In this document: positions 3,903-41,279 of the stretch, one piece after another
Position numbering within the stretch: position 1 is the first letter of the stretch
Layout of the letters: every line of letters starts with the position of its first letter
UHGV virus genome: UHGV-0282798
Source of the DNA: a virus
Strand: one strand, 5' to 3'
DNA length: 45,006 bases
Program-made: the position numbers and the translations under genes
The notes under the pieces: generated by a model
Told to the model about the DNA's origin: nothing
Database searches by the model: none
What the model saw: only the letters and a program-made list of their open reading frames with translations

Positions 3903-4439
3903 TCATTTAACGGCTCTCCCAATAGCCTCAGCCTCTTGCCACGGTTTACCGTCGAACAGCGCCAGACGCCCGGCTGCACGGCGACGCAGGCCGAGTAATG
4001 GTTTGCCGTTCTGGTTGATGAACAGCGCCAGCTTGGCACGCAGTGTTGCAATATCACCTGAGCGCAGCGCCTTACCCGTGCCAGTAGTAGCCGCAATCAC
4101 ACCAGCACCCGCGTTGTAGACCAGGTCACACACAGCGTCGAACTGCGCCTGTGTCAGTGAATGGTGCGCCACCGAATCCACCGCAGCTACGGCCTTAGCC
4201 ATATCGCGATTAAGTAACAGGAGGCCTTGTCCCGGTGTGATGGTCTTGCCTGGAGTCACGTCCGGCCCGTAGTGGCCGTAGCCAATAGTAAGGTACTTCT
4301 CATTCGGCGTAGCACGATACGCAGTTCCGCGGAATCCCTCGAACGCAGCACAGAAATGCAATCCATTATCTGAAATATTTCGAGACACGCTTATGTCCTC
4401 CGTATGACAGCCACGCCTGACGAATCTGGCGCAGCGCAA
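3903..4439 (-). CDS. Endolysin, phage lysozyme (GH24) family
   Basis: EGFRGTAYRATPNEKYLTIGYGH and LTQAQFDAVCDLVYNAGAG match T4-lysozyme-type motifs. Likely true start is GTG at 4386-4388 preceded by GGAGG (ACGGAGGACATAAGC GTG), giving about 162 aa. Confidence 0.8.
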   Translation of the reverse strand: MRCARFVRRGCHTEDISVSRNISDNGLHFCAAFEGFRGTAYRATPNEKYLTIGYGHYGPDVTPGKTITPGQGLLLLNRDMAKAVAAVDSVAHHSLTQAQFDAVCDLVYNAGAGVIAATTGTGKALRSGDIATLRAKLALFINQNGKPLLGLRRRAAGRLALFDGKPWQEAEAIGRAVK

Positions 4440-4638
4440 CTAATGTGATTAATGTCTCAGGCAGCGTAGGTGACATGCTGCCCTGTAACAGGTGGATGCA
4501 TCCGGCGGCGCAGACGATAGCAGTCAGGATATAGAGCACCCGGCCAAATAATCCGTCGTCCACGCTGGGGTGATACACATTAAACAGCGATGCGCCCCCG
4601 ATGGCCAGCATACCGCCGAACCAGAATAACTCATTCAT
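4366..4638 (-). CDS. Holin or antiholin-like membrane protein (2 TM)
   Basis: Hydrophobic segments FWFGGMLAIGGASLF and LYILTAIVCAAGCIHLL; immediately upstream of endolysin. Confidence 0.5.
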   Translation of the reverse strand: MNELFWFGGMLAIGGASLFNVYHPSVDDGLFGRVLYILTAIVCAAGCIHLLQGSMSPTLPETLITLVALRQIRQAWLSYGGHKRVSKYFR

Positions 4639-4939
4639 CCGGGCCTCCTCGACGTGAGATGTATTCCCCGGCGACGATACCGGAGAGGCGGGAATAGATG
4701 GGCATCCAGAGAATGGCGATGATGAATCCGAGGCCAGCTATCTCTCGCTCCCCAGTAATGCCAAACCATTGCGCGGCAAGAGGTGCACCAAACACGGCAC
4801 AGGTGAAGCCGGTTGCAATAAAGCAGAAGCCGTCAATGGGGCCAGAAATAACGGACTTATGTTGTCGTAGTCCGATTACCCCTCCGGCTAGCGCGGCAGC
4901 GAGAAGCCAGCCCGTCACTGTTTCAGTAAATTTATCCAA
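4631..4939 (-). CDS. Holin-like membrane protein (3 predicted TM)
   Basis: Three hydrophobic segments with a charged C-terminal tail RRGGPDE; position in lysis cassette. Confidence 0.55.
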   Translation of the reverse strand: MDKFTETVTGWLLAAALAGGVIGLRQHKSVISGPIDGFCFIATGFTCAVFGAPLAAQWFGITGEREIAGLGFIIAILWMPIYSRLSGIVAGEYISRRGGPDE

Positions 4940-28272: not shown

Positions 28273-28923
28273 ATGATACCCACAGAAAAAGTAGCTAAGA
28301 GTATGTGGCTGCGCGCGAATTATCCCGCGAACAAAAGCAGCAAAACTAGGCGTGCAACTATATGCGATTTTGGCATAAATGATGCCGATTATGTGGTTAG
28401 TCCTAAGATAAACGGCAACCGTGAGCCGTGTCCTGCGTACGCTACGTGGCGAGGGATGATCCAACGTTGCATAGACGTCGAGTATAAAAACAAAAGACCT
28501 GCATACAAGGATGTAACTGTGTGGCATGGGTGGCAAAGGTTTATGTCCTTCCGTAGATGGTGGCTTTGTAATTACGTAGAAGGATGGGAACTAGATAAGG
28601 ACTTATTCTCTGGTATTAATAAGATATACAGCCCCACCACTTGCATTTTTATTCCGCAATGGTTGAATGTTTTTCTACTGGAAAGGAAAAATAGTGGGTC
28701 ACCTACAGGTGTTTTTTATGAAGAATCAAGAGGTAAATTTAAAGCCTCAGTGAAATATGAGAAAAAAACTATTAATCTAGGACGTTTTGAAACTCAGGAA
28801 GAAGCGCTAGATGCCTACATCGCTGAAAAGATAAGGATAGCAGAATCAAGAAGATGCGAGATAGAGGCGATAAGAGAAGGTATGTTCGCCCGCGTTATCG
28901 CCTTGATAAAAGAGGGGCGTTAG
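28273..28923 (+). CDS. AP2-domain protein, putative free-standing endonuclease with atypical N-terminal domain
   Basis: C-terminal AP2-like GVFYEESRGKFKASVKYEKKTINLGRFETQEEALDAYIAEK; Trp-rich N-terminal domain (YATWRGMIQRC ... VWHGWQRF) with no HNH motif visible; opposite strand to flanking tail genes. Confidence 0.5.
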   Translation: MIPTEKVAKSMWLRANYPANKSSKTRRATICDFGINDADYVVSPKINGNREPCPAYATWRGMIQRCIDVEYKNKRPAYKDVTVWHGWQRFMSFRRWWLCNYVEGWELDKDLFSGINKIYSPTTCIFIPQWLNVFLLERKNSGSPTGVFYEESRGKFKASVKYEKKTINLGRFETQEEALDAYIAEKIRIAESRRCEIEAIREGMFARVIALIKEGR

Positions 28924-28932
28924 CCCCTACCT

Positions 28933-31257
28933 TTAATACCCCGGCTGACCGCGAGTAGAGCGGCGAGCTTTAGAAATCGGTGAGTTGTTATCCTGTAACT
29001 GCGACGCTACTGTTTCACTGATTATAATACGTAAACGCCCTTCGTCATCACGTTCTGTTACAGCAGAATCTACGCGCCCCGTAGTGTTATTAACTATAGT
29101 GACGTTATCACCGCCGGACTGGCCACCGTTTTGCCCCATAATCTCTTTCATCTGCTGCGCAGTTCGTACGCGCGATGCGCCAGCAGGCATGATAACTTCC
29201 GGTTTGCCGCGTTCTGCGATGGTAGACATCTGCCCCGCTGATAACTGACCGCCCTGCTCACGTGCCGAGCGGATTTTGGCGATATTAGCCAGCCCCGCGG
29301 CAACGGCAGTACCTGCGGCAACCGGTGCCAGGAATGGGCCGACAACCGGTATCGCTGCGGTAGACTTATATGCTTCGATAGCCGAGGTGTATGTTGCGAT
29401 AGTGGCCTGGGCAATAGCAAACGCTTTATACGCGGTGGACGCCTCGCCAAATGCCGTTTTAGCATTAGCTGCCATGTCACCGAAAGAACTACCTAAAGCC
29501 TCGGCGCGCTTCGTAGCATACTGCTCATTGATAGCGTTAAGCGCCGCCTGATACTGTTCCTCGTTAATAAGCCCCTGTTCTCGATACTTATCAGCGACAG
29601 CCAGTTTCTGCTGTTCCTGGATGTCGAGGAGCTCAAGCTCAGCGGCGTTCTGCCCCATAATCTGGGCCATGAAGTCATCGCCTTTCTGCTGCTTTTCCTG
29701 CTGCTCTTTTCTTTTCTTATCCAGTTCTTCCTGTCTGGCCTGCTCGGCTGTGAGCATAATTTGAGTTTTGGCGTTTTCGTATTGCTGCTGGCTTATCGTT
29801 CCTGCGCGGTTGAACTCTTCAAGTTTTGCCAGTTTCTGCTCTTCGGCCGCCGTGATGCGAGAAATTTCATCTCCGGTTGTACGGTCAACCGTAGCAAGGA
29901 AATCTTCCGCGGCTTTCTTCTGGCGTTGTGCCGCCGTTTCTTCACGTTTGGCCTGCGCCGCCAGACGTTTCTCGTTCGATTTAGCCTCGCGGTCTGCCTT
30001 CTCTTTCTCGGTCTTGTCAATGCGGGCGATGTCTTGCTGTGCTTCCGTGTCACGAGCAGCATTATACGCGGCGATCTGTTCTTTGGTTACAGCTTCACGT
30101 TTAGCAAACGCCTGCTTATCCAGTTCAGCTTGCGCCCGGATGCGCTCACGGTCGCTTAAGATGGCGATTTGCTGATTCTTGACGATAGCTTCGTTCTGCT
30201 CCTGGAACCTCTGCGTGGTTGAGTTAACGTTACGACCGAGATTCTTTTGGGCTTCCGCCGCTGCGTTTGCGGACTTCTCCGCGTTCTCCAGTGCTGTGGC
30301 GTTCTTGTTGGCGTTGTCTGTCAGGCGGATAAGTTCCGGATTCAACTGTTTTGTGTTACCGAGCCAGTCGGTAAACACATCGGCGATGCGGCGGGCATTC
30401 TCGGCGGTTGGCTCTTTGTTAAACGCGCTCTGCGCCGCTATCATCTCCAGCGCCTGGTCACGGTTAACCCCGAACTTACTGCTAAGCTCCGCTATATTCT
30501 GCGCCAGCATGTTGACGCCTACGATGTTACCCTCGTAAGTGCCGCCAAGTTTTTCTAACGTGTCGCCTACATCCGCACCCTTAGAGACCAATGCATCGTA
30601 CTGGCTAATAGCGGATGCCGTGGAGGCTTTCCATGTCTCCCATGACTCGGCGTCCTCGCGGACAGCTTTAGCTGTTTGCTGCGCGATAAGGTCTGCGTTA
30701 GCCTTAGCCAGAGCAAGCTGAGTCTCCGCCGCTTCTCTGCTGATTTGGGTAAGCTGGATAAGGCCGTCTGTCAGTTCGAGGGAGCCAGATGCCGTTTGCT
30801 GGAAGGTGTCTTTTAACTGTTTCTGCGCGGCTTCCAGGTCTTTTGAACTGCCTTCTGCTTCGGTTAGCGATTTGTACAGGACACCGCCGATTGCCGAAGC
30901 AAGAGCAATCACAGCCCCGAGCACCGCGCCACCAGGTCCGAAAGCACCAGCAAGCTGCGAACCTTGTTGCCCGATTGCTACGAATGCAGACGTGCCGGAT
31001 TGCAACTGGACTACCATGTCCTGCACCTGGAAGCCAACCTGCCCTGCAGCGTTACGGAACTTAGCGAAACCGTCGGAGGCCGCTTTAGACGTAGCGGAGT
31101 TTACTTTATTAACGTCCGGCGTTAGTTTGTTTACGGATGTGTCCGCCCGGTCTGCGGATGCCGCCATAGCGTCAAGCTGTTTAGCGGCCGCATCAGCGCC
31201 TTCTGTTTTTACTCTGGCAATTAGGGAAGCCGTATCAGCCATCTTCTCTGCCCTCAA
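28933..31257 (-). CDS. Tail tape measure protein
   Basis: 774 aa, Ala/Gln/Glu/Lys-rich coiled-coil composition; between chaperones and distal tail genes. Track start is TTG; ATG at 31240-31242 with GAGGG RBS. Confidence 0.8.
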   Translation of the reverse strand: MRAEKMADTASLIARVKTEGADAAAKQLDAMAASADRADTSVNKLTPDVNKVNSATSKAASDGFAKFRNAAGQVGFQVQDMVVQLQSGTSAFVAIGQQGSQLAGAFGPGGAVLGAVIALASAIGGVLYKSLTEAEGSSKDLEAAQKQLKDTFQQTASGSLELTDGLIQLTQISREAAETQLALAKANADLIAQQTAKAVREDAESWETWKASTASAISQYDALVSKGADVGDTLEKLGGTYEGNIVGVNMLAQNIAELSSKFGVNRDQALEMIAAQSAFNKEPTAENARRIADVFTDWLGNTKQLNPELIRLTDNANKNATALENAEKSANAAAEAQKNLGRNVNSTTQRFQEQNEAIVKNQQIAILSDRERIRAQAELDKQAFAKREAVTKEQIAAYNAARDTEAQQDIARIDKTEKEKADREAKSNEKRLAAQAKREETAAQRQKKAAEDFLATVDRTTGDEISRITAAEEQKLAKLEEFNRAGTISQQQYENAKTQIMLTAEQARQEELDKKRKEQQEKQQKGDDFMAQIMGQNAAELELLDIQEQQKLAVADKYREQGLINEEQYQAALNAINEQYATKRAEALGSSFGDMAANAKTAFGEASTAYKAFAIAQATIATYTSAIEAYKSTAAIPVVGPFLAPVAAGTAVAAGLANIAKIRSAREQGGQLSAGQMSTIAERGKPEVIMPAGASRVRTAQQMKEIMGQNGGQSGGDNVTIVNNTTGRVDSAVTERDDEGRLRIIISETVASQLQDNNSPISKARRSTRGQPGY

Positions 31258-31507
31258 ATATTCCGTCTAAGCCCATGATAACCTCGGCTTCGAACAAACT
31301 TATGCCGTAACCGGCGACATCACGAAACGCTACCAAATCTTGCCATTTGAGCGCATCGCGCGGGATTATAACGATAGTATCATCTGTTTCGCGCTGTAGG
31401 AATTTAATGGCACGGTATTTCTCGAACACGTCGATAAGAGAAACGGGGCATTCTGGCCCCGTCGCTTCTTTCATCTGCGGTTCTTTAATCACACCCATTG
31501 CGATCAA
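31235..31507 (-). CDS. Tail assembly protein (gpT-position ORF)
   Basis: 90 aa between chaperone and tape measure; track start is TTG; its frame is -1 relative to 31597-32013 but is closed by a stop at 31544-31546. Confidence 0.35.
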   Translation of the reverse strand: MIAMGVIKEPQMKEATGPECPVSLIDVFEKYRAIKFLQRETDDTIVIIPRDALKWQDLVAFRDVAGYGISLFEAEVIMGLDGIFEGREDG

Positions 31508-31596
31508 AGCTGCTTGATGCCCCGCCGCGATGTCGTCGAATTGCTTACGTTTCTGGCGGTCGACAAAGCACCATTGCGCAAATTCATACAGCGCTT

Positions 31597-32013
31597 TTAC
31601 TTTTCCGAGAGTTTCTCGCGGCTATCGGTGTGGTGTTTAACTACGGCTTCTGCCAGTCCGCTGTACTGGTCTAACAGGTTAGCCAGCGCCTCTTTGCTGA
31701 ACGGCTCGTCGAATGACCAACCGGTGACGATGTCGACAGCGAGCTGCTTGTTCAGGTCCATCACCCGCCAGCCCTTCTCATCGTTATAGCGCGCCCAGTT
31801 ATTCAGCGCCTCGCACTCTTTATCTAATGGCGCAAGTTCTTCCGTAAGGCGTCGAATTGCCGTTGTGTAGGCGCGGCCTGCACGAACACCCGCATCACAA
31901 TCGGGGCCAATGACCTGCAGCCATTCGCCGGAGTCTTTACCGCTCGGCAGGAGGATAGGCATTTTAGTACCAGTAGCGTGGCGGTCGGCAAAATAAAAAT
32001 CAGAAAGTTTCAT
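31597..32013 (-). CDS. Tail assembly chaperone (gpG-like)
   Basis: 138 aa; position upstream of the tape measure; acidic C-terminal half. Confidence 0.5.
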   Translation of the reverse strand: MKLSDFYFADRHATGTKMPILLPSGKDSGEWLQVIGPDCDAGVRAGRAYTTAIRRLTEELAPLDKECEALNNWARYNDEKGWRVMDLNKQLAVDIVTGWSFDEPFSKEALANLLDQYSGLAEAVVKHHTDSREKLSEK

Positions 32014-32120
32014 TCTTTGATCCTTTGGTTAAGAGGTTACAGGTTAAGGTTGACGCGCCAGACGGGAACCACCCGCTTTTCGTGTGCGACACTAGGCGCA
32101 AACTTATTCTAGCACACTAC

Positions 32121-32149
32121 TTGCACACCCCAATATAATAGGGTACTAT
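32121..32149 (+). promoter_or_regulatory. Promoter TTGCAC-17-TACTAT with dyad (island promoter)
   Basis: -35 32121-32126, -10 32144-32149; dyad AATAGGGTACTATT 32137-32150; same TTGCAC/TACTAT class as 7191 and 8698. Confidence 0.5.
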
Positions 32150-32179
32150 TCACCTACACCAACAATGGAGGGATTTAAA

Positions 32180-32371
32180 ATGTCAAGTTTACCAGTTTCC
32201 TTAATTCTGTTTGCACTTCTCGCTTATTTCGCGCCTTTCCTGGTTGCGTACTTCCGTAATCATAAAGCGAAGTTGGCAATATTCATGGCTAACCTGTTTC
32301 TTGGCTGGGTTCTGCTGCCGTGGGTATTTATTTTAATATGGGCTTGCAACTCGAACGTGAAAGAGAAGTAG
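32180..32371 (+). CDS. Imm-like small membrane protein (superinfection-immunity-type, putative)
   Basis: AYFAPFLVAYFRNHKAKLAIFMANLFLGWVLLPWVFILIWA fits the pattern I recall for the superinfection-immunity family. Track ORF 32165; ATG 32180 has a GGAGGG RBS. Confidence 0.45.
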   Translation: MSSLPVSLILFALLAYFAPFLVAYFRNHKAKLAIFMANLFLGWVLLPWVFILIWACNSNVKEK

Positions 32372-32409
32372 GCTACTATAAGACAAATCCTAAACACGAG
32401 GAAGTAAGC

Positions 32410-33540
32410 ATGGCCCATAAGAAAATAACCGACGAACAGTTACAGGAAGAATTGAACGCCGGAATGAAGAATGCAGACATCGCCCGTAAATACGGCATCT
32501 CAGACCGCGTAATTCGTATCCGTAAAGCGAAGCTGGCTAAGAAAGGCGTAGGCCACGGGCGTGACGTTAGTCACCTTGTCCCGGACGGCTACAAAATTAA
32601 AGGGACCTCGTCACTGGTGGACGAGTTCGGCAACACTAAACTTCAATGGGTTAAGACCGACACCGATGCCGAACGTCAGGTCGAGTTGATGAAAGCCGTA
32701 ATCGAAGGCATGAAGTCGGAGATTACTCCAGTTGCACCAGTTAAAGCCGTTCGCGCCAAACGTGACGATAAACTACTCAATCTTTACACGGTATCTGATT
32801 TCCATCTCGGTATGCTGGCCTGGGCCGACGAGAGCGGCGACGACTGGGATATGAAGATTGCGGAAGACCTGTTCTCTCGCTGGTTCGATGCTGCGTTCCA
32901 GAAAGCGCCAGATGCAGGAACAGGAGTTATTAACCTGCTTGGCGACCTTGCGCACTTCGATAGTCTGGATGCCGTTACACCTGCAAGCGGCCATGTTCTT
33001 GACGCGGACACGCGCTATCAGAAACTGGTCCGCTACATGATTCGTATGGTTCGCCGTGTTATTGATATGGCGCTGGTTAAGCATAAAAATGTTCGCTTGC
33101 TTATCGTGCAAGGGAACCACGACGAAAGTGGAATGATTTGGTTAGCTGAGATGTTCAGTACGCTGTACGACAATGAGCCGCGTGTGTTTGTCGATACTTC
33201 ACCAGATGTTTACAAGATGGTGCAACACGGCAAAACGACGCTGTTCTTTACACACGGGCATAAATGCCGGTTTGAGGTTGTCGAACCAATTATGATAGCT
33301 AAGTTCAGAAAAGCATTTGGAGAAAGCGAGTACAGTTACGCGCATGTAGGGCATCTCCACCATCAAAAGATTGTAGAAAGTAGGAATATGGTAGTGGAGC
33401 AACATCGCACTCTCGCGGCGAAAGATGCATATGCTTCCCGCGGCGGGTGGATGTCTAAGAGGTCCGCTAATGTCATAACCTATAGTTCAGAGTTCGGGGA
33501 AGTAGGTAGGCTTTCAATCTCACCGGAGATGCTAAGATGA
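32410..33540 (+). CDS. HTH domain fused to calcineurin-like metallophosphoesterase
   Basis: N-terminal HTH (MKNADIARKYGISDRVIRIRKAKL); phosphoesterase motifs SDFHLG, LGDLAHFD, VQGNHDE, FTHGH, HVGHLHH. Track ORF 32320; ATG 32410 (MAHKKITDEQ) preceded by GAGGAAG. Confidence 0.65.
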   Translation: MAHKKITDEQLQEELNAGMKNADIARKYGISDRVIRIRKAKLAKKGVGHGRDVSHLVPDGYKIKGTSSLVDEFGNTKLQWVKTDTDAERQVELMKAVIEGMKSEITPVAPVKAVRAKRDDKLLNLYTVSDFHLGMLAWADESGDDWDMKIAEDLFSRWFDAAFQKAPDAGTGVINLLGDLAHFDSLDAVTPASGHVLDADTRYQKLVRYMIRMVRRVIDMALVKHKNVRLLIVQGNHDESGMIWLAEMFSTLYDNEPRVFVDTSPDVYKMVQHGKTTLFFTHGHKCRFEVVEPIMIAKFRKAFGESEYSYAHVGHLHHQKIVESRNMVVEQHRTLAAKDAYASRGGWMSKRSANVITYSSEFGEVGRLSISPEMLR

Positions 33541-34007
33541 AGTACCTTGATGTTTCAAAACAATTTAAATACTGCCCTGATACGGGGCAGGTTACCAGGA
33601 TATCTACTGGTGCTGAGGTTGGTACGGTTGGTGTAAGAGGATATCTGTGCTGCGGTATGGGTGGTAAAACAGTATATGTCCACCGCGTAGCATGGTGTCT
33701 TTATAATAAATGTGACTTAGACAGGAAAACACAAATAGACCACATAAACCATAACAGGCTAGACAATAGAATAGAAAATCTACGCGCCACCGACAATACA
33801 GGGAACAGTAAAAATAAAACTATGAGAAAGATAAATAAATCCGGGGCTACAGGTGTAAGTTTCCACAAAGCCGCGGGTAAGTGGCGCGCGTTTATAAAAG
33901 TTAACTACAAACAAGTGCATTTAGGGCTTTACGACGATTTTGATGTAGCGGTTGCCGCGCGTAAAGCCGCTGAGAGTAAATACGGTTTTCATGAAAACCA
34001 TGAGTAG
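33537..34007 (+). CDS. HNH-AP2 homing-type endonuclease
   Basis: HRVAWCLYN ... QIDHINHNRLDNRIENLR (HNH) and GVSFHKAAGKWRAFIKVNYKQVHLGLYDDFDVAVAARKAAESKYG (AP2); paralog of 13122-13610. Confidence 0.75.
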   Translation: MKYLDVSKQFKYCPDTGQVTRISTGAEVGTVGVRGYLCCGMGGKTVYVHRVAWCLYNKCDLDRKTQIDHINHNRLDNRIENLRATDNTGNSKNKTMRKINKSGATGVSFHKAAGKWRAFIKVNYKQVHLGLYDDFDVAVAARKAAESKYGFHENHE

Positions 34008-34018
34008 GAGAGCTATTT

Positions 34019-34249
34019 ATGACTTCAAAATATAACCGCACAATGACAAATACCCACGGCAGCACTATGACAGTAGACGTTTATGATGTGCTGCGGGCCT
34101 TCGACATCCGCGACCCAGCACTGCAACACGCTTTGAAGAAATTATTGTGCATGGGCTTGCGTGGACACAAAGACACCGGGACGGACTTAGCGGAAGCAAT
34201 TGAAAGTCTGGAGAAGTTACGAGAGTACCGGAGTAATATTGATGAGTGA
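34019..34249 (+). CDS. Hypothetical small protein
   Basis: ORF track. Confidence 0.4.
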   Translation: MTSKYNRTMTNTHGSTMTVDVYDVLRAFDIRDPALQHALKKLLCMGLRGHKDTGTDLAEAIESLEKLREYRSNIDE

Positions 34250-34418
34250 AAATATTATGAAAACGATATATGTAATCCGTGTATACGACGAAGAATGGGA
34301 CGAGTGGGTTGATATTTACGCTGTAGGTAGTAAGGAAGAGGCCTCTAAAGAGATGGCAGAACGGAGTGACCGAGGTCAGTTAACTAACTTCTACGAAATG
34401 CCATTCAAAAGTGAGTAA
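34200..34418 (+). CDS. Hypothetical small protein
   Basis: ORF track; true start probably an internal ATG (MSENIMKT or MKTIYVIRV). Confidence 0.35.
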   Translation: MKVWRSYESTGVILMSENIMKTIYVIRVYDEEWDEWVDIYAVGSKEEASKEMAERSDRGQLTNFYEMPFKSE

Positions 34419-34421
34419 GAA

Positions 34422-34448
34422 AAGGCCCCGAAAGGGGCCTTAGTTTTA
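34422..34448. terminator. Terminator hairpin closing the plus-strand island
   Basis: Stem AAGGCCCC (34422-34429) / GGGGCCTT (34434-34441), loop gaaa, then AGTTTTA; sits between the island and the convergent major tail gene. Confidence 0.6.
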
Positions 34449-35618
34449 TGCGTAGGTGATACGCTGGATAACAATAGACGACTGGTACTGATTGCCGGTA
34501 GCCTGGCCTTCGATGGACTGAGTGATTGACTCTGGTCCGCCAATCTCTGGCGTAACCGCCGTAAGTTCTGCGCGTTTCAGGCTGAAAGACATAGCCCCGT
34601 TTACCCCCGCCAGAATAGAGTTAATCTCTACCTGCTGTTCGTTGATAAACTTCTGAATCATCGCCATGTCGTACAGCTTACCGGAGATAGAGAAGGTGTT
34701 AGCCGCGCGACCACGTTCCACGAACGCAACGCTACTGTTGCCGAGTTCGAACTGCGCAGAAGCACCGTTGTCGTTTGTGATGGTCAGAGTATCGCAACGC
34801 AACGGCGTAGAACCGTCGAACACGGACACATCTACGGATGAGAACGGCTCATCGGTAAACGTCACCTGAGAGAAATCAGAACCTGCTGGCGGTGCAGAAA
34901 GAATCTCCTGACTTAGACCGATGAACGGGAAGCTGCCTGTCACCATCGCGTTTACGGCCTGTTCAATGGTGAATCCGGAGATTTCCACGCCTTTGGTCAA
35001 CATGTACGCGTCCGGGTTCCCGCACTGTCCTTTGAACCATGTCAGGATGGAGAACGTCTTACATGCGTTACTGGTTTCCAGTTTGTCGCCGGTTTTAGCG
35101 TCGGTGGTTACAGTCTCTGCTGTCAGCGTGTGCTGAATGCCCGCACCCGTAACTACAAGAGCAGAAACCGCGGTCACGATAAACGGTTTTGCGTTGTCGC
35201 CGGTTAAGTCGGTGAACGCAATCAGGTCGCCAACTTCTACACCGTCAGTAATGAAGCTACCGGCAGCGCGGGTGAATGTTTTACCTGCTGGGGCGACCGT
35301 AATTTCAGCACCCGTAATCTCCACCCCATCCTGCCACGTAGAAGTCATCGCGCCCGCGAGGAAATCATCCTGGCTACGCGAGCTAAGTTCGATGGCGTAC
35401 TCCCCGCTAACCTGCTTATTACCAGTGCGGATGGATGTAGTTTCACGGCTGCCGTCGAGTTCGTTGGAAGTCAGCGCATCGCGGGTTACGGCTGGAACGC
35501 CGCCCGTGTTACGCAACGGCGACCAGACCGGGTTAGTCGGTGTTACGCCCGGGGTATTTTCCACCACATAGAATTGCGCGGTATTCGCGCCCTTAAAAGG
35601 AGTTGTAGCCATATTCAC
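34446..35618 (-). CDS. Major tail protein (putative)
   Basis: 390 aa, Thr/Ser/Gly/Ala-rich; follows tail-completion genes. Positional call. Confidence 0.55.
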   Translation of the reverse strand: MNMATTPFKGANTAQFYVVENTPGVTPTNPVWSPLRNTGGVPAVTRDALTSNELDGSRETTSIRTGNKQVSGEYAIELSSRSQDDFLAGAMTSTWQDGVEITGAEITVAPAGKTFTRAAGSFITDGVEVGDLIAFTDLTGDNAKPFIVTAVSALVVTGAGIQHTLTAETVTTDAKTGDKLETSNACKTFSILTWFKGQCGNPDAYMLTKGVEISGFTIEQAVNAMVTGSFPFIGLSQEILSAPPAGSDFSQVTFTDEPFSSVDVSVFDGSTPLRCDTLTITNDNGASAQFELGNSSVAFVERGRAANTFSISGKLYDMAMIQKFINEQQVEINSILAGVNGAMSFSLKRAELTAVTPEIGGPESITQSIEGQATGNQYQSSIVIQRITYA

Positions 35619-40783: not shown

Positions 40784-41047
40784 CTATTCCAGAATATTCC
40801 TCACGTAATCCTGCAACATGAACACTTTCAGCCTCAGTTGCCGTACACATTCAGCGTTCTGAACGTCGATAGCCAAATCCTCGTCAGCATCACTACTTGG
40901 CGGTGCCAGCTTGCACGGCGGCTGCATCATTGTCGTATCCGGGGATGGAATTGGCGTTTGCGACGGCGCGGGACTTGAGTTGCACGCGCTCAGGGTCAAA
41001 AGTGCACACGCTGCGGCTAGGCGTTTTAATGTACTTAACGACTTCAC
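40784..41047 (-). CDS. o-spanin (Rz1-like lipoprotein)
   Basis: Signal peptide with lipobox LTLSAC, Pro-rich mature part; +1-frame gene overlapping the 3-prime half of the Rz-like gene. Confidence 0.6.
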   Translation of the reverse strand: MKSLSTLKRLAAACALLTLSACNSSPAPSQTPIPSPDTTMMQPPCKLAPPSSDADEDLAIDVQNAECVRQLRLKVFMLQDYVRNILE

Positions 41048-41279
41048 GGGTAATCACCTCTGATTTCGTCTTGCCTTCGTTGTCGGCGGCTGCGGCCTTT
41101 GACTCATCCTGCTGCTGCCGTTGTGTCTTCTTAGCTAACTCAGCCTTCGCTTTTTGGGTTTGTTCGGTAACGAGGTCAAGCCGTCCCGCATCCCAGCCGC
41201 GGTTGTATTGGTACCCCCCGTACAGCCATACCGTAAGCAAGCCTGCCGCCGTTAGTGTTGCTGTGTTGCTTAGATTCAT
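40893..41279 (-). CDS. i-spanin (Rz-like)
   Basis: N-terminal TM (TATLTAAGLLTVWLYGGY) then a charged helical periplasmic region; overlaps the Rz1-like ORF. Confidence 0.55.
   Translation of the reverse strand: MNLSNTATLTAAGLLTVWLYGGYQYNRGWDAGRLDLVTEQTQKAKAELAKKTQRQQQDESKAAAADNEGKTKSEVITREVVKYIKTPSRSVCTFDPERVQLKSRAVANANSIPGYDNDAAAVQAGTAK

What the first reader, a model, noticed from the sequence alone, without database searches (positions are those of the whole stretch)
32180..32371. Imm-like superinfection-immunity-type membrane protein at the head of the island
The 63-aa product has two hydrophobic helices and the sequence YFAPFLVAYFRNHKAKLAIFMANLFLGWVLLPWVFILIWA, which matches my recollection of the conserved core of the superinfection-immunity family (YF.P...A..R.H.....I..N..LGW...GW..LIWA). 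It is the first gene after the island promoter and has a strong RBS.
Basis: partly seen in the sequence, partly recalled or inferred. Interest (0 to 1): 0.45.

Follow-up and report, generated by a model that had tools for sequence, protein, structure and literature searches.

The report
T4 Imm-like superinfection exclusion gene
This 63-residue membrane-protein gene of an E. coli Kagunavirus phage is a clear relative of phage T4's Imm protein, which stops later-arriving phages from delivering their DNA; it is an ordinary gene, already annotated in related phages, that sits in a swappable slot.

Summary
An ATG ORF at 32180-32371 (+) encodes the quoted 63-aa protein. It has a GGAGGG ribosome-binding site 7 nt upstream and two hydrophobic segments joined by a basic loop.

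- Pfam PF14373 Imm_superinfect scores 48.6 bits (cut-off 27.9) over the full profile.
- PHROG 1039 'immunity to superinfection' scores 1.4e-22.
- T4 Imm itself hits the same Pfam model and aligns without gaps.
- The equivalents of two T4 residues whose mutation weakens exclusion (R33, W50) are conserved here (R26, W43).

The window is a Kagunavirus (Guernseyvirinae) siphophage. Identical or near-identical genes are already annotated 'superinfection immunity protein' in GenBank and mentioned in several papers, so this is already known by homology. No member outside T4 has been tested.

New details found here:
- The gene occupies a promoter-proximal cassette slot. About 99 related phages, including the closest relative NTEC3, carry an unrelated 108-aa secreted protein there instead.
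- The cassette boundary lies about 6 nt after a conserved TTGCAC-17-TACTAT promoter-like element.
- This window joins imm to a tail-gene type otherwise seen with the other cassette. No deposited phage shares that junction.

The most likely function is to block DNA entry by later phages, probably through their tape measure protein.

The parts
32121..32149 (+). Promoter-like element TTGCAC - 17 nt - TACTAT. An overlapping perfect TATAAT at 32134-32139 has a poor -35.
   Evidence: Positions. Both hexamers and their spacing are conserved in EC3-1, NTEC3, Bas75 and Salmonella phage SP-101. The element falls below the consensus scan's threshold. Not mapped experimentally.
32153..32156 (+). Left boundary of the exchangeable cassette. 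It coincides with the predicted transcription start, about 6-7 nt after the -10 hexamer.
   Evidence: All megablast matches from phages carrying the other cassette stop at query position 854-856, which is window 32153-32155. Alignment A2 diverges here.
32167..32172 (+). Ribosome-binding site GGAGGG, 7 nt before the ATG.
32180..32371 (+). imm-like gene encoding a 63-aa PF14373 membrane protein. Predicted helices are 3-16, 18-25, 31-41 and 45-55. R26 and W43 correspond to T4 Imm R33 and W50.
32372..32409 (+). Right boundary of the cassette, followed by the spacer holding the next gene's ribosome-binding site (GAGGAAG at 32398-32404). Similarity to phages carrying the other cassette resumes at about 32378.
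32410..33540 (+). Downstream gene of the same + strand block: metallophosphoesterase / 'DNA repair exonuclease' with an N-terminal helix-turn-helix-like stretch.
   Evidence: PHROG 704 at 9.6e-166. Pfam Metallophos_2 scores 25.3 bits, just below its cut-off of 27.
33537..34007 (+). Free-standing HNH endonuclease gene inside the block. It is absent from some relatives, such as Bas75 and phage 26.
   Evidence: PF13392 at 3.4e-10; PHROG 99.
34019..34249 (+). Conserved 76-aa gene of unknown function (PHROG 2452).
34422..34441 (.). Bidirectional terminator-like hairpin AAGGCCCCGAAAGGGGCCTT, closing the + strand block and the converging - strand tail gene.
28933..31257 (-). Tape measure protein (774 aa), the class of protein that T4 Imm binds. 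It has hydrophobic segments at aa 100-134 and 632-662. It is mosaic: the N-terminal two thirds are NTEC3-like and the C-terminal third is HSE2/phage 26-like.
   Evidence: PHROG 1538 at 8.6e-196; hydropathy; mosaic structure. Its role as the target is inferred, not shown.

Best explanation
The gene encodes a small inner-membrane protein of the Imm_superinfect family (PF14373), a homologue of phage T4 Imm.

It is most likely transcribed by host RNA polymerase from a conserved sigma-70-like promoter. That promoter heads a short rightward operon embedded in the leftward tail-gene module.

Once inserted in the inner membrane of the infected cell, the protein stops phages that adsorb later from translocating their DNA into the cytoplasm (superinfection exclusion). 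By analogy with T4, it would do this by binding the incoming phage's tape measure protein and preventing it from opening the inner-membrane conduit.

What is shown: the ORF, its ribosome-binding site, family membership, conservation of the family signature and of the two functionally tested T4 residues, purifying selection, the helical-hairpin model, and the independence of the gene from the lysis cassette.

What is inferred: membrane location, timing of expression, the exclusion phenotype, which phages are excluded, and tape measure protein binding.
For: Family membership:
- PF14373 scores 48.6 bits against a cut-off of 27.9, over the full profile.
- PHROG 1039 scores 1.4e-22.
- T4 Imm falls in the same Pfam model and gives a gapless BLASTP alignment.
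- Signature residues Y16, F17, P19, A23, R26, H28, I34, N38, G42, W43, W48 and W54 match columns that are 92-100% conserved in 150 diverse representatives.

Structure:
- The AF2 model has pLDDT 95.3 and four short helices forming two hydrophobic arms.
- Its only structural neighbours in BFVD are phage 'superinfection immunity' proteins or unnamed entries; four of the six hits carry that name.

Mechanism in T4 (preprint 10.64898/2026.03.06.709160):
- Imm co-purifies with the tape measure protein gp29.
- R33A and W50A weaken exclusion. Their equivalents, R26 and W43, are present here (register). W43 is invariant and R26 is conserved in 9 of 10 close homologues.

Supporting context:
- The core is under purifying selection.
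- The window's tape measure protein has hydrophobic segments, as expected for a membrane-inserting tape measure protein.
- A complete lysis set lies elsewhere: holins at 4366-4939, endolysin at 3903-4439 and a spanin at 40893-41279.
- In the Kagunavirus K1B4 RNA-seq study the homologous gene is transcribed during infection and is placed in the same temporal class as several replication genes, a different class from the capsid and tail genes named (PMC12645636).
Against: - No member of the family other than T4 Imm has been tested for exclusion. The literature search found only annotations.
- T4 Imm is a divergent member: it lacks H28, N38 and G42 of the consensus and carries a 20-residue C-terminal tail that is absent here.
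- T4 is a myovirus whose tape measure protein I did not compare with this one, so a shared target site is unshown.
- The family has thousands of members (7668 50%-identity clusters) and is not restricted to phages. One homologue lies inside a conjugative type IV secretion gene cluster and another next to a penicillin-binding protein gene.
- The T4 binding result comes from a preprint with a roughly 6 Å map.
- The K1B4 study classed the gene as 'late' (peak after 100 min), which fits poorly with an early block, although that study's time scheme is unusual.
- About a fifth of related phages lack the gene altogether.
Confidence: 0.65

Rival explanations
1. The protein mainly protects the infected cell's envelope from damage by secondary adsorptions (resistance to lysis from without or 'secondary traumatization', stabilising the latent period). 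Denying entry to competitor genomes would be a by-product.
For: T4 Imm is also associated with resistance to lysis from without, to secondary traumatization and to premature collapse of lysis inhibition (review PMC6832632). A block at the inner-membrane pore step would produce both effects.
Against: In T4 the envelope-protection role belongs mainly to Spackle, with Imm the lesser component. The T4 plaque assays score exclusion directly. Nothing in the window separates the two outcomes.
Confidence: 0.12
2. It is a generic small membrane protein of a very large family. Its real role is not phage exclusion, and the family name has been over-propagated from one T4 experiment. Examples of other roles would be membrane homeostasis or blocking DNA entry by other mobile elements.
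For: - The family has 7668 representative clusters.
- Homologues occur in many bacterial phyla.
- One sits between the coupling-protein gene and traE in an F-like conjugation cluster.
- Another sits beside PBP and Fic genes in a Kaiserbacteria contig.
- There is no PADLOC or NCBIfam model for it.
Against: The window protein shares the two residues that matter for T4 exclusion. It sits in a lytic phage next to the tape measure protein module. It occupies a promoter-proximal accessory slot, typical of genes that act on the host envelope. The conjugation context is itself compatible with a DNA-entry block.
Confidence: 0.15
3. It is a lysis-timing protein (holin or antiholin-like).
For: The protein is small, with two hydrophobic helices. 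T4 Imm has been said to resemble a holin. The K1B4 paper describes the homologue as 'involved in cell lysis'.
Against: There is no holin family hit. The window has two holins (PHROG 2508 and 2359) directly upstream of its endolysin, plus a spanin, about 27 kb away. The gene is dispensable in about 99 relatives that keep the same lysis genes.
Confidence: 0.04
4. It is a chance ORF or a decaying remnant.
For: Many chance ORFs of this size exist in the window.
Against: - The Pfam E-value is 7.5e-13.
- There is a canonical ribosome-binding site.
- Identical protein is found in three other phages, and about 350 related records encode a homologue.
- The core shows 15 synonymous-only against 4 non-synonymous codon differences.
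Confidence: 0.01

Closest known systems
Phage T4 Imm (gene imm, NP_049660, 83 aa; Pfam PF14373 founding member)
   Same: Both fall in the same Pfam model. The alignment is gapless at 28% identity. Both have two hydrophobic arms with a short basic loop. R33/W50 of T4 correspond to R26/W43 here. Both are small genes of a virulent phage.
   Different: The window protein is 20 residues shorter, lacking the polar C-terminal tail. It keeps the family consensus H28, N38 and G42 that T4 has lost. The host phage is a siphovirus with a different tail, whose tape measure protein I did not compare with T4 gp29. Its genomic neighbourhood is the tail module, not the replication genes. No phenotype is known.
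imm-like genes of other Guernseyvirinae (Kagunavirus EC3-1, EM1, HSE2, Schulenberg; Jerseyvirus SP-101, SS3e, SeF1, UPWr_S)
   Same: They share the same slot, promoter region and downstream exonuclease gene. Identity is 100% to HSE2, JSSK01 and EP-M-A, and 73% to EC3-1. They are already annotated 'superinfection immunity protein' and are mentioned in PMC6763661, PMC5582158, PMC9409062 and PMC8425127.
   Different: In this window the gene is joined to NTEC3-type chaperone and tape measure genes. Elsewhere those genes accompany the alternative 108-aa cassette, and no deposited phage spans this junction.
HK97 gp15 and P22 SieA (inner-membrane superinfection exclusion proteins that block DNA entry)
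   Same: They have the same proposed point of action. gp15 is reported to act through the tape measure protein (cited). SieA blocks DNA entry (PMC10461980, listed).
   Different: These are prophage-expressed proteins. No sequence relationship is indicated: no shared Pfam or PHROG family appeared. They are analogues, not relatives.
[quoted passage not shown]
   Same: They are small inner-membrane proteins that neutralise an incoming helical-bundle pore former. The T4 preprint draws this analogy.
   Different: There is no sequence relationship, and the target is a toxin rather than a phage tail protein.

Membership tests
Pfam PF14373 Imm_superinfect / PHROG 1039 | Profile score above the curated gathering cut-off over the whole domain | tested here: met
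   48.6 bits against a cut-off of 27.9, profile positions 2-42 of 42, E 7.5e-13. PHROG 1039 at E 1.4e-22.
Pfam PF14373 Imm_superinfect / PHROG 1039 | Direct relationship to the founding member, T4 Imm | tested here: met
   T4 Imm hits PF14373 at 58.2 bits. BLASTP between the two gives 28% identity over 54 aa with no gaps and a pairwise E of 2e-10.
Pfam PF14373 Imm_superinfect / PHROG 1039 | Family signature YF.P...A..R.H.....I...N..LGW...GW.....W | tested here: met
   12 of 13 signature columns match (each 92-100% conserved among the aligned set of 150 representatives plus the window protein and T4 Imm). The exception is P47, where 91% have G.
Pfam PF14373 Imm_superinfect / PHROG 1039 | Small protein with two hydrophobic arms and a short basic connecting loop (inner-membrane hairpin) | tested here: met
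   Hydropathy peaks at aa 4-25 and 32-56 with the loop RNHKAK. The AF2 model has pLDDT 95.3 and helices 3-16, 18-25, 31-41 and 45-55. Membrane insertion itself is predicted only.
T4 Imm-type function | Residues needed for exclusion in T4 (R33, W50) | tested here: met
   By the gapless register these are R26 and W43. W43 is invariant and R26 is conserved in 9 of 10 close homologues. The T4 mutant data come from a preprint.
T4 Imm-type function | Blocks infection after adsorption when expressed alone (exclusion phenotype) | not testable with these tools
   Needs plaque and DNA-entry assays. No published test exists for any Guernseyvirinae homologue.
T4 Imm-type function | Physical binding to the phage tape measure protein | not testable with these tools
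   The window tape measure protein has hydrophobic segments at aa 100-134 and 632-662, but no interaction data exist. No solved structure of any relative was found.
T4 Imm-type function | Expressed early enough to protect the infected cell | tested here: inconclusive
   A sigma-70-like element is conserved but falls below the consensus scan's threshold. K1B4 RNA-seq places the homologue in a class peaking 'late', together with several replication genes, under an unusual 120-min scheme.
Holin / antiholin | Match to a holin family and placement next to the endolysin | tested here: not met
   There is no holin hit. The holins (PHROG 2508, 2359) and endolysin lie at 3903-4939, and the spanin at 40893-41279.
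DUF3302 (PF11742), GlpM (PF06942) | Score above the gathering cut-off | tested here: not met
   18.4 bits against a cut-off of 32, and 13.0 bits against a cut-off of 25. These are hydrophobic-composition matches.
T4 Spackle-like periplasmic exclusion protein (considered for the alternative 108-aa cassette, not for the imm gene) | Fold resemblance to a solved exclusion protein | tested here: inconclusive

The most novel reading that the evidence does not exclude
The first position after the conserved promoter may be a two-allele 'exclusion slot'. It holds either the inner-membrane Imm homologue or an unrelated secreted 108-aa protein (PHROG 14165). Both alleles occur in E. coli and in Salmonella Guernseyvirinae.

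Each allele is associated with a different tape measure/chaperone type. In 19 genomes, 6 of the 7 with the NTEC3/Jersey tape measure type (cluster A below) carry the 108-aa gene, and all 11 with the other two main types (clusters B and C) carry imm.

If the two proteins are alternative blocks matched to the tape measure type of their own phage, this window is a natural mismatch: imm joined to the N-terminal two thirds of the 'other' tape measure type. It would then be a ready-made test of which part of the tape measure protein Imm recognises.
Probability: 0.15. Interest if true: 0.45.

Novelty: already known. Interest (0 to 1): 0.2.

Why it matters
For the finding itself, little is at stake. 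It confirms a routine annotation that many GenBank records and several papers already carry.

It has some practical relevance. Kagunaviruses and jerseyviruses are used in phage-therapy cocktails, and a working exclusion gene would affect co-infection within a cocktail.

The cassette dimorphism and the recombinant junction give a cheap experimental handle. They could test whether the tape measure-binding mechanism proposed for T4 Imm extends to siphoviruses.

Tried and rejected
1. Covariation of the Imm N-terminal helix with tape measure type. The N-terminal helix is hypervariable: 13 of 15 codons are non-synonymous against EC3-1. I tested whether it tracks the tape measure type, as binding specificity would predict. 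Rejected: phages with 93-97% identical tape measure proteins carry different N-terminal variants (ULINTec2 vs fEg-Eco19; HSE2 vs EC3-1).

2. Consensus promoter scan. No sigma-70 site was reported upstream of the gene. The promoter call rests on conservation only.

3. Solved structures. A sequence profile search and Foldseek against the PDB both found nothing.

5. Bacterial homologue L007 ('Taishania pollutisoli', 62% identical). This turned out to be a Guernseyvirinae-like phage contig with the same gene order, not a bacterial gene.

6. The genome-contig scan with the broad alignment A3 failed for lack of a conserved stretch. The narrower A4 returned only 9 loci, so the taxonomic spread is a sample, not a census.

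7. Rfam found no RNA family anywhere in the window.

8. CRISPRi-ART paper. Its 'superinfection immunity' refers to RexAB and is not relevant.

9. The original T4 Imm papers (Lu and Henning 1989; Lu et al. 1993) are not held in the library. The T4 topology statement is second-hand.

10. Local tblastn did not recover T4 imm with the window protein at E<=1. The relationship rests on Pfam and pairwise BLASTP.

Full report
**Observation**

ATG is at 32180 and the stop codon at 32369-32371. The product is MSSLPVSLILFALLAYFAPFLVAYFRNHKAKLAIFMANLFLGWVLLPWVFILIWACNSNVKEK, and the quoted 40-mer is residues 16-55. GGAGGG at 32167-32172 lies 7 nt upstream of the ATG. An in-frame ATG at 32165 has no such site, and homologues start at the position of the 63-aa form.

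A 17-residue Kyte-Doolittle scan shows two hydrophobic stretches (about aa 4-25 and 32-56) separated by RNHKAK. T4 Imm has the same plan, with the loop RGSKS.

The gene opens a + strand block (32180-34418) that interrupts the - strand tail genes. Upstream are the tail assembly chaperones at 31235-32013 (PF23812, PF08748). Downstream is a tail protein at 34446-35618 (PHROG 290). A bidirectional hairpin at 34422-34441 closes the block.

**What it is**

- Pfam PF14373 (Imm_superinfect) matches at 48.6 bits against a gathering cut-off of 27.9, covering profile positions 2-42 of 42.
- PHROG 1039 'immunity to superinfection' matches at 1.4e-22.
- I fetched T4 imm from NC_000866. Its product hits the same Pfam model at 58.2 bits and aligns with the window protein without gaps, at 28% identity over 54 residues.
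- A profile of the window protein and its close homologues found 7668 50%-identity cluster representatives at E<=1e-3 among 1.84 billion proteins.
- Across the best 150 representatives the conserved columns are Y16, F17, P19, A23, R26, H28, I34, N38, G42, W43, G47, W48 and W54.
- T4 Imm is the more divergent of the two: it lacks H28, N38 and G42.
- With a 60-sequence alignment, AlphaFold2 gives a confident model (pLDDT 95.3, pTM 0.77). Helices run 3-16, 18-25, 31-41 and 45-55, making two hydrophobic arms, each kinked (at P19 and at G42-W43).
- Its only neighbours in the viral structure library are phage 'superinfection immunity' proteins or unnamed entries; four of the six hits carry that name, from Aeromonas, Pseudomonas, Serratia and Mycobacterium phages.
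- No relative has a solved structure.

**Where it comes from**

The window is a Kagunavirus (Guernseyvirinae) E. coli siphophage. The 3-kb region around the gene is 94% identical to phages NTEC3 and SCS92.

- The identical 63-aa protein is encoded by phages HSE2, JSSK01 and EP-M-A.
- About 350 Guernseyvirinae records encode a homologue.
- Many records already name it 'superinfection immunity protein'.
- The homology to T4 Imm has been pointed out for phage Schulenberg (PMC6763661), for a K1 phage collection (PMC5582158) and for jerseyviruses (PMC9409062 and PMC8425127).
- None of these papers tested the gene. A search for the Pfam accession found no functional study.

The finding is therefore correct but already known.

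**Is it a real, selected gene?**

Against EC3-1, codons 16-63 are 29 identical, 15 synonymous-only and 4 non-synonymous. Codons 1-15 are almost entirely replaced (13 non-synonymous). The core is under strong purifying selection, and the first helix is free to vary.

**How it most likely works**

In T4, Imm is an inner-membrane protein that blocks DNA translocation of secondary phages. It also contributes to resistance to lysis from without (PMC6832632).

A 2026 preprint (10.64898/2026.03.06.709160) reports three things:
- Imm co-purifies with the helical-bundle and transmembrane region of the T4 tape measure protein gp29.
- A roughly 6 Å map shows Imm contacting the bundle.
- R33A and W50A reduce exclusion.

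In the gapless register (T4 position = window position + 7), these are R26 and W43. W43 is invariant and R26 is conserved in 9 of 10 close homologues. R26 and W43 are 97% and 98% conserved across the family sample.

The window's own tape measure protein (28933-31257; PHROG 1538) has two hydrophobic segments, at aa 100-134 and 632-662. This is expected of a tape measure protein that enters the inner membrane.

My best explanation is that the protein sits in the inner membrane of the infected cell and prevents the tape measure protein of later-adsorbing phages from opening the DNA conduit. Membership of the family is shown. Location, timing, phenotype, target range and binding are all inferred.

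A lysis role is unlikely. The window has two holins, an endolysin and a spanin elsewhere, as does its relative EC3-1.

**Caveats on the family name**

The name rests on one protein, and the family is not confined to phages. A narrow scan of one genome per species found nine loci, eight of them in bacterial genome or MAG assemblies from Bifidobacterium, Acidobacteria, Omnitrophota, Kaiserbacteria, Planctomycetales, Terriglobales, Sulfurovum and one unclassified bacterium.

- One locus (L007, labelled Taishania) is really a Guernseyvirinae-like phage contig.
- One (L010) lies between the coupling-protein gene and traE in an F-like conjugation cluster.
- One (L011) lies near an integrase and a DUF5131 gene, and one (L012) lies next to PBP and Fic genes.

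The conjugation context is at least compatible with a general role in blocking incoming DNA, but it is a single case.

**Promoter and cassette structure**

The consensus scan found no sigma-70 site upstream. Aligning the intergenic region of five phages shows that 32014 to about 32155 is highly conserved even in Salmonella phage SP-101. The conserved part includes TTGCAC (32121), a 17-nt spacer and TACTAT (32144); SP-101 has TTGCAT-17-TATTAT.

Similarity stops about 6 nt after the -10 hexamer, at the expected transcription start. It resumes at about 32378, just before the ribosome-binding site of the next gene.

Between those points the closest relative NTEC3, the BASEL phages Bas70-76, K1H and phage Jersey carry a different gene. 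It encodes a 108-109-aa protein with an N-terminal signal peptide and a predicted helical mature domain (PHROG 14165, unknown function). Ninety-nine phage records have it, in both E. coli and Salmonella phages.

In the two complete genomes, one near-complete record and the window that I checked, a phage has one cassette or the other, never both. The statement in PMC8425127 that all jerseyviruses carry imm is therefore not accurate. Baig et al.'s observation that phage P, but not G or L, has the gene fits this dimorphism.

**Link to the tape measure protein**

I compared 19 genomes. Their tape measure proteins fall into three clusters and one outlier:
- Cluster A: Jersey, SGPC, pink, the window, Bas75, NTEC3 and K1H.
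- Cluster B: ULINTec2, fEg-Eco19, phage 26 and EM1.
- Cluster C: VIPECOTH07, phiEc4, EC3-1, HSE2, SP-101, SS3e and wksl3.
- Outlier: Esher4.

The 108-aa gene is in 6 of the 7 cluster A genomes and in Esher4. imm is in all 11 genomes of clusters B and C, and in the window. Fisher's exact test gives p = 0.0017, but the genomes are related and the genes lie only 3 kb apart, so this is not an independent-sample probability.

The window is the exception, and it is a mosaic:
- 29650-32150 (tape measure N-terminal two thirds, both chaperones, intergenic region) is NTEC3/Bas75-like and has no nucleotide match to HSE2, EC3-1 or phage 26.
- 32200-32349 (imm) is 96% HSE2-like and has no match to NTEC3.
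- 28900-29650 (tape measure C-terminal third) is closer to HSE2 and phage 26.

A junction query (31300-32371) found no record among 50,697 phage genomes that spans it. All cluster A matches end at window 32153-32155.

The region is bracketed by two free-standing HNH endonuclease genes, at 28273-28923 and 33537-34007. These may favour such exchanges.

Whether the association reflects function or only linkage cannot be decided here. My first idea, that the variable first helix of Imm tracks the tape measure type, is refuted by the same table.

**Expression timing**

The only data are from Kagunavirus K1B4 RNA-seq. The homologue was transcribed and placed in the same class as the methyltransferase and DNA polymerase genes, a different class from the capsid and tail genes that paper names. 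The class was labelled 'late' (peak after 100 min) in a 120-min scheme that probably spans more than one infection cycle (PMC12645636). I treat this as evidence that the gene is transcribed on a different schedule from the named tail and capsid genes, not as evidence on when it acts.

**Verdict**

The gene is a canonical PF14373 member and is already annotated in this phage group, so novelty is 'already known' and interest is low.

The modest additions are:
- conservation of the two T4 functional residues;
- the cassette dimorphism, with its boundary at the predicted transcription start;
- the unique recombinant junction of this genome.

Noticed in passing
window 32153-32378; L005 4179-4505 (NTEC3), L004 4176-4502 (Bas75), L017 20001-20330 (Jersey): The imm position is a two-allele cassette slot. 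Ninety-nine phage records, from both E. coli and Salmonella Guernseyvirinae, carry an unrelated 108-109-aa gene there instead (PHROG 14165, function unknown). Its product has a signal peptide, two conserved cysteines and a predicted helical domain. The two cassettes were mutually exclusive in all four genomes checked.
   Followed up: partly
window 28900-32371: The window is a mosaic. The tape measure N-terminal two thirds plus both chaperones are NTEC3/Bas75-type. The imm gene and the tape measure C-terminal third are HSE2/phage 26-type. No record among 50,697 deposited phage genomes spans the chaperone-imm junction.
   Followed up: yes
window 32027-32080: The conserved intergenic block upstream of the promoter holds three GGTTA repeats (starting at 32027, 32035 and 32042, plus GGTTG at 32048). 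It also holds a small hairpin followed by a T-run (CGGGAACCACCCGCTTTTC from 32063). The block is kept from Kagunavirus to Jerseyvirus. It may belong to the divergent promoter or leader of the chaperone and tape measure genes.
   Followed up: no
window 28273-28923 (+) and 33537-34007 (+): Two free-standing HNH endonuclease genes (PHROG 953; PF13392/PHROG 99) bracket the region running from the tape measure gene to the exonuclease gene. Both are present in only some relatives. They are possible drivers of the local mosaicism.
   Followed up: partly
window 34257-34418 (+): A 53-aa acidic ORF (MKTIYVIRVYDEEWDEW...) lies just before the terminator hairpin. It has no PHROG or NCBIfam hit. The stretch 34300-34449 has no nucleotide match in the five relatives compared, where the 76-aa gene is followed almost directly by the tail gene.
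   Followed up: partly
L010 6001-6123 (Omnitrophota MAG JBEKHW010000008.1): A PF14373 homologue sits inside an F-like conjugative type IV secretion cluster, between the TraD/TrwB-type coupling protein gene and traE, with TraG_N, TrbI and TraC nearby. This may parallel entry exclusion, but it is a single locus.
   Followed up: partly
L007 (NZ_JACVEL010000023.1, labelled Taishania pollutisoli): This 13-kb scaffold has the full Guernseyvirinae gene order (tape measure, two chaperones, imm at 62% identity, exonuclease, tail protein). It looks like a phage contig inside a bacterial assembly.
   Followed up: partly
window 32180-32371: The imm cassette has 42.7% G+C, against 50.4% for the whole window.
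   Followed up: no
L003 6773-7462 (SP-101), L017 21951-22562 (Jersey), L020 5858-6900 (EM1), L027 6020-7059 (K1H): The distal end of the same + strand block is also variable. Different relatives carry an anti-repressor-like gene, a polynucleotide kinase plus dNMP kinase pair, or an HNH gene between the exonuclease gene and the tail gene.
   Followed up: no
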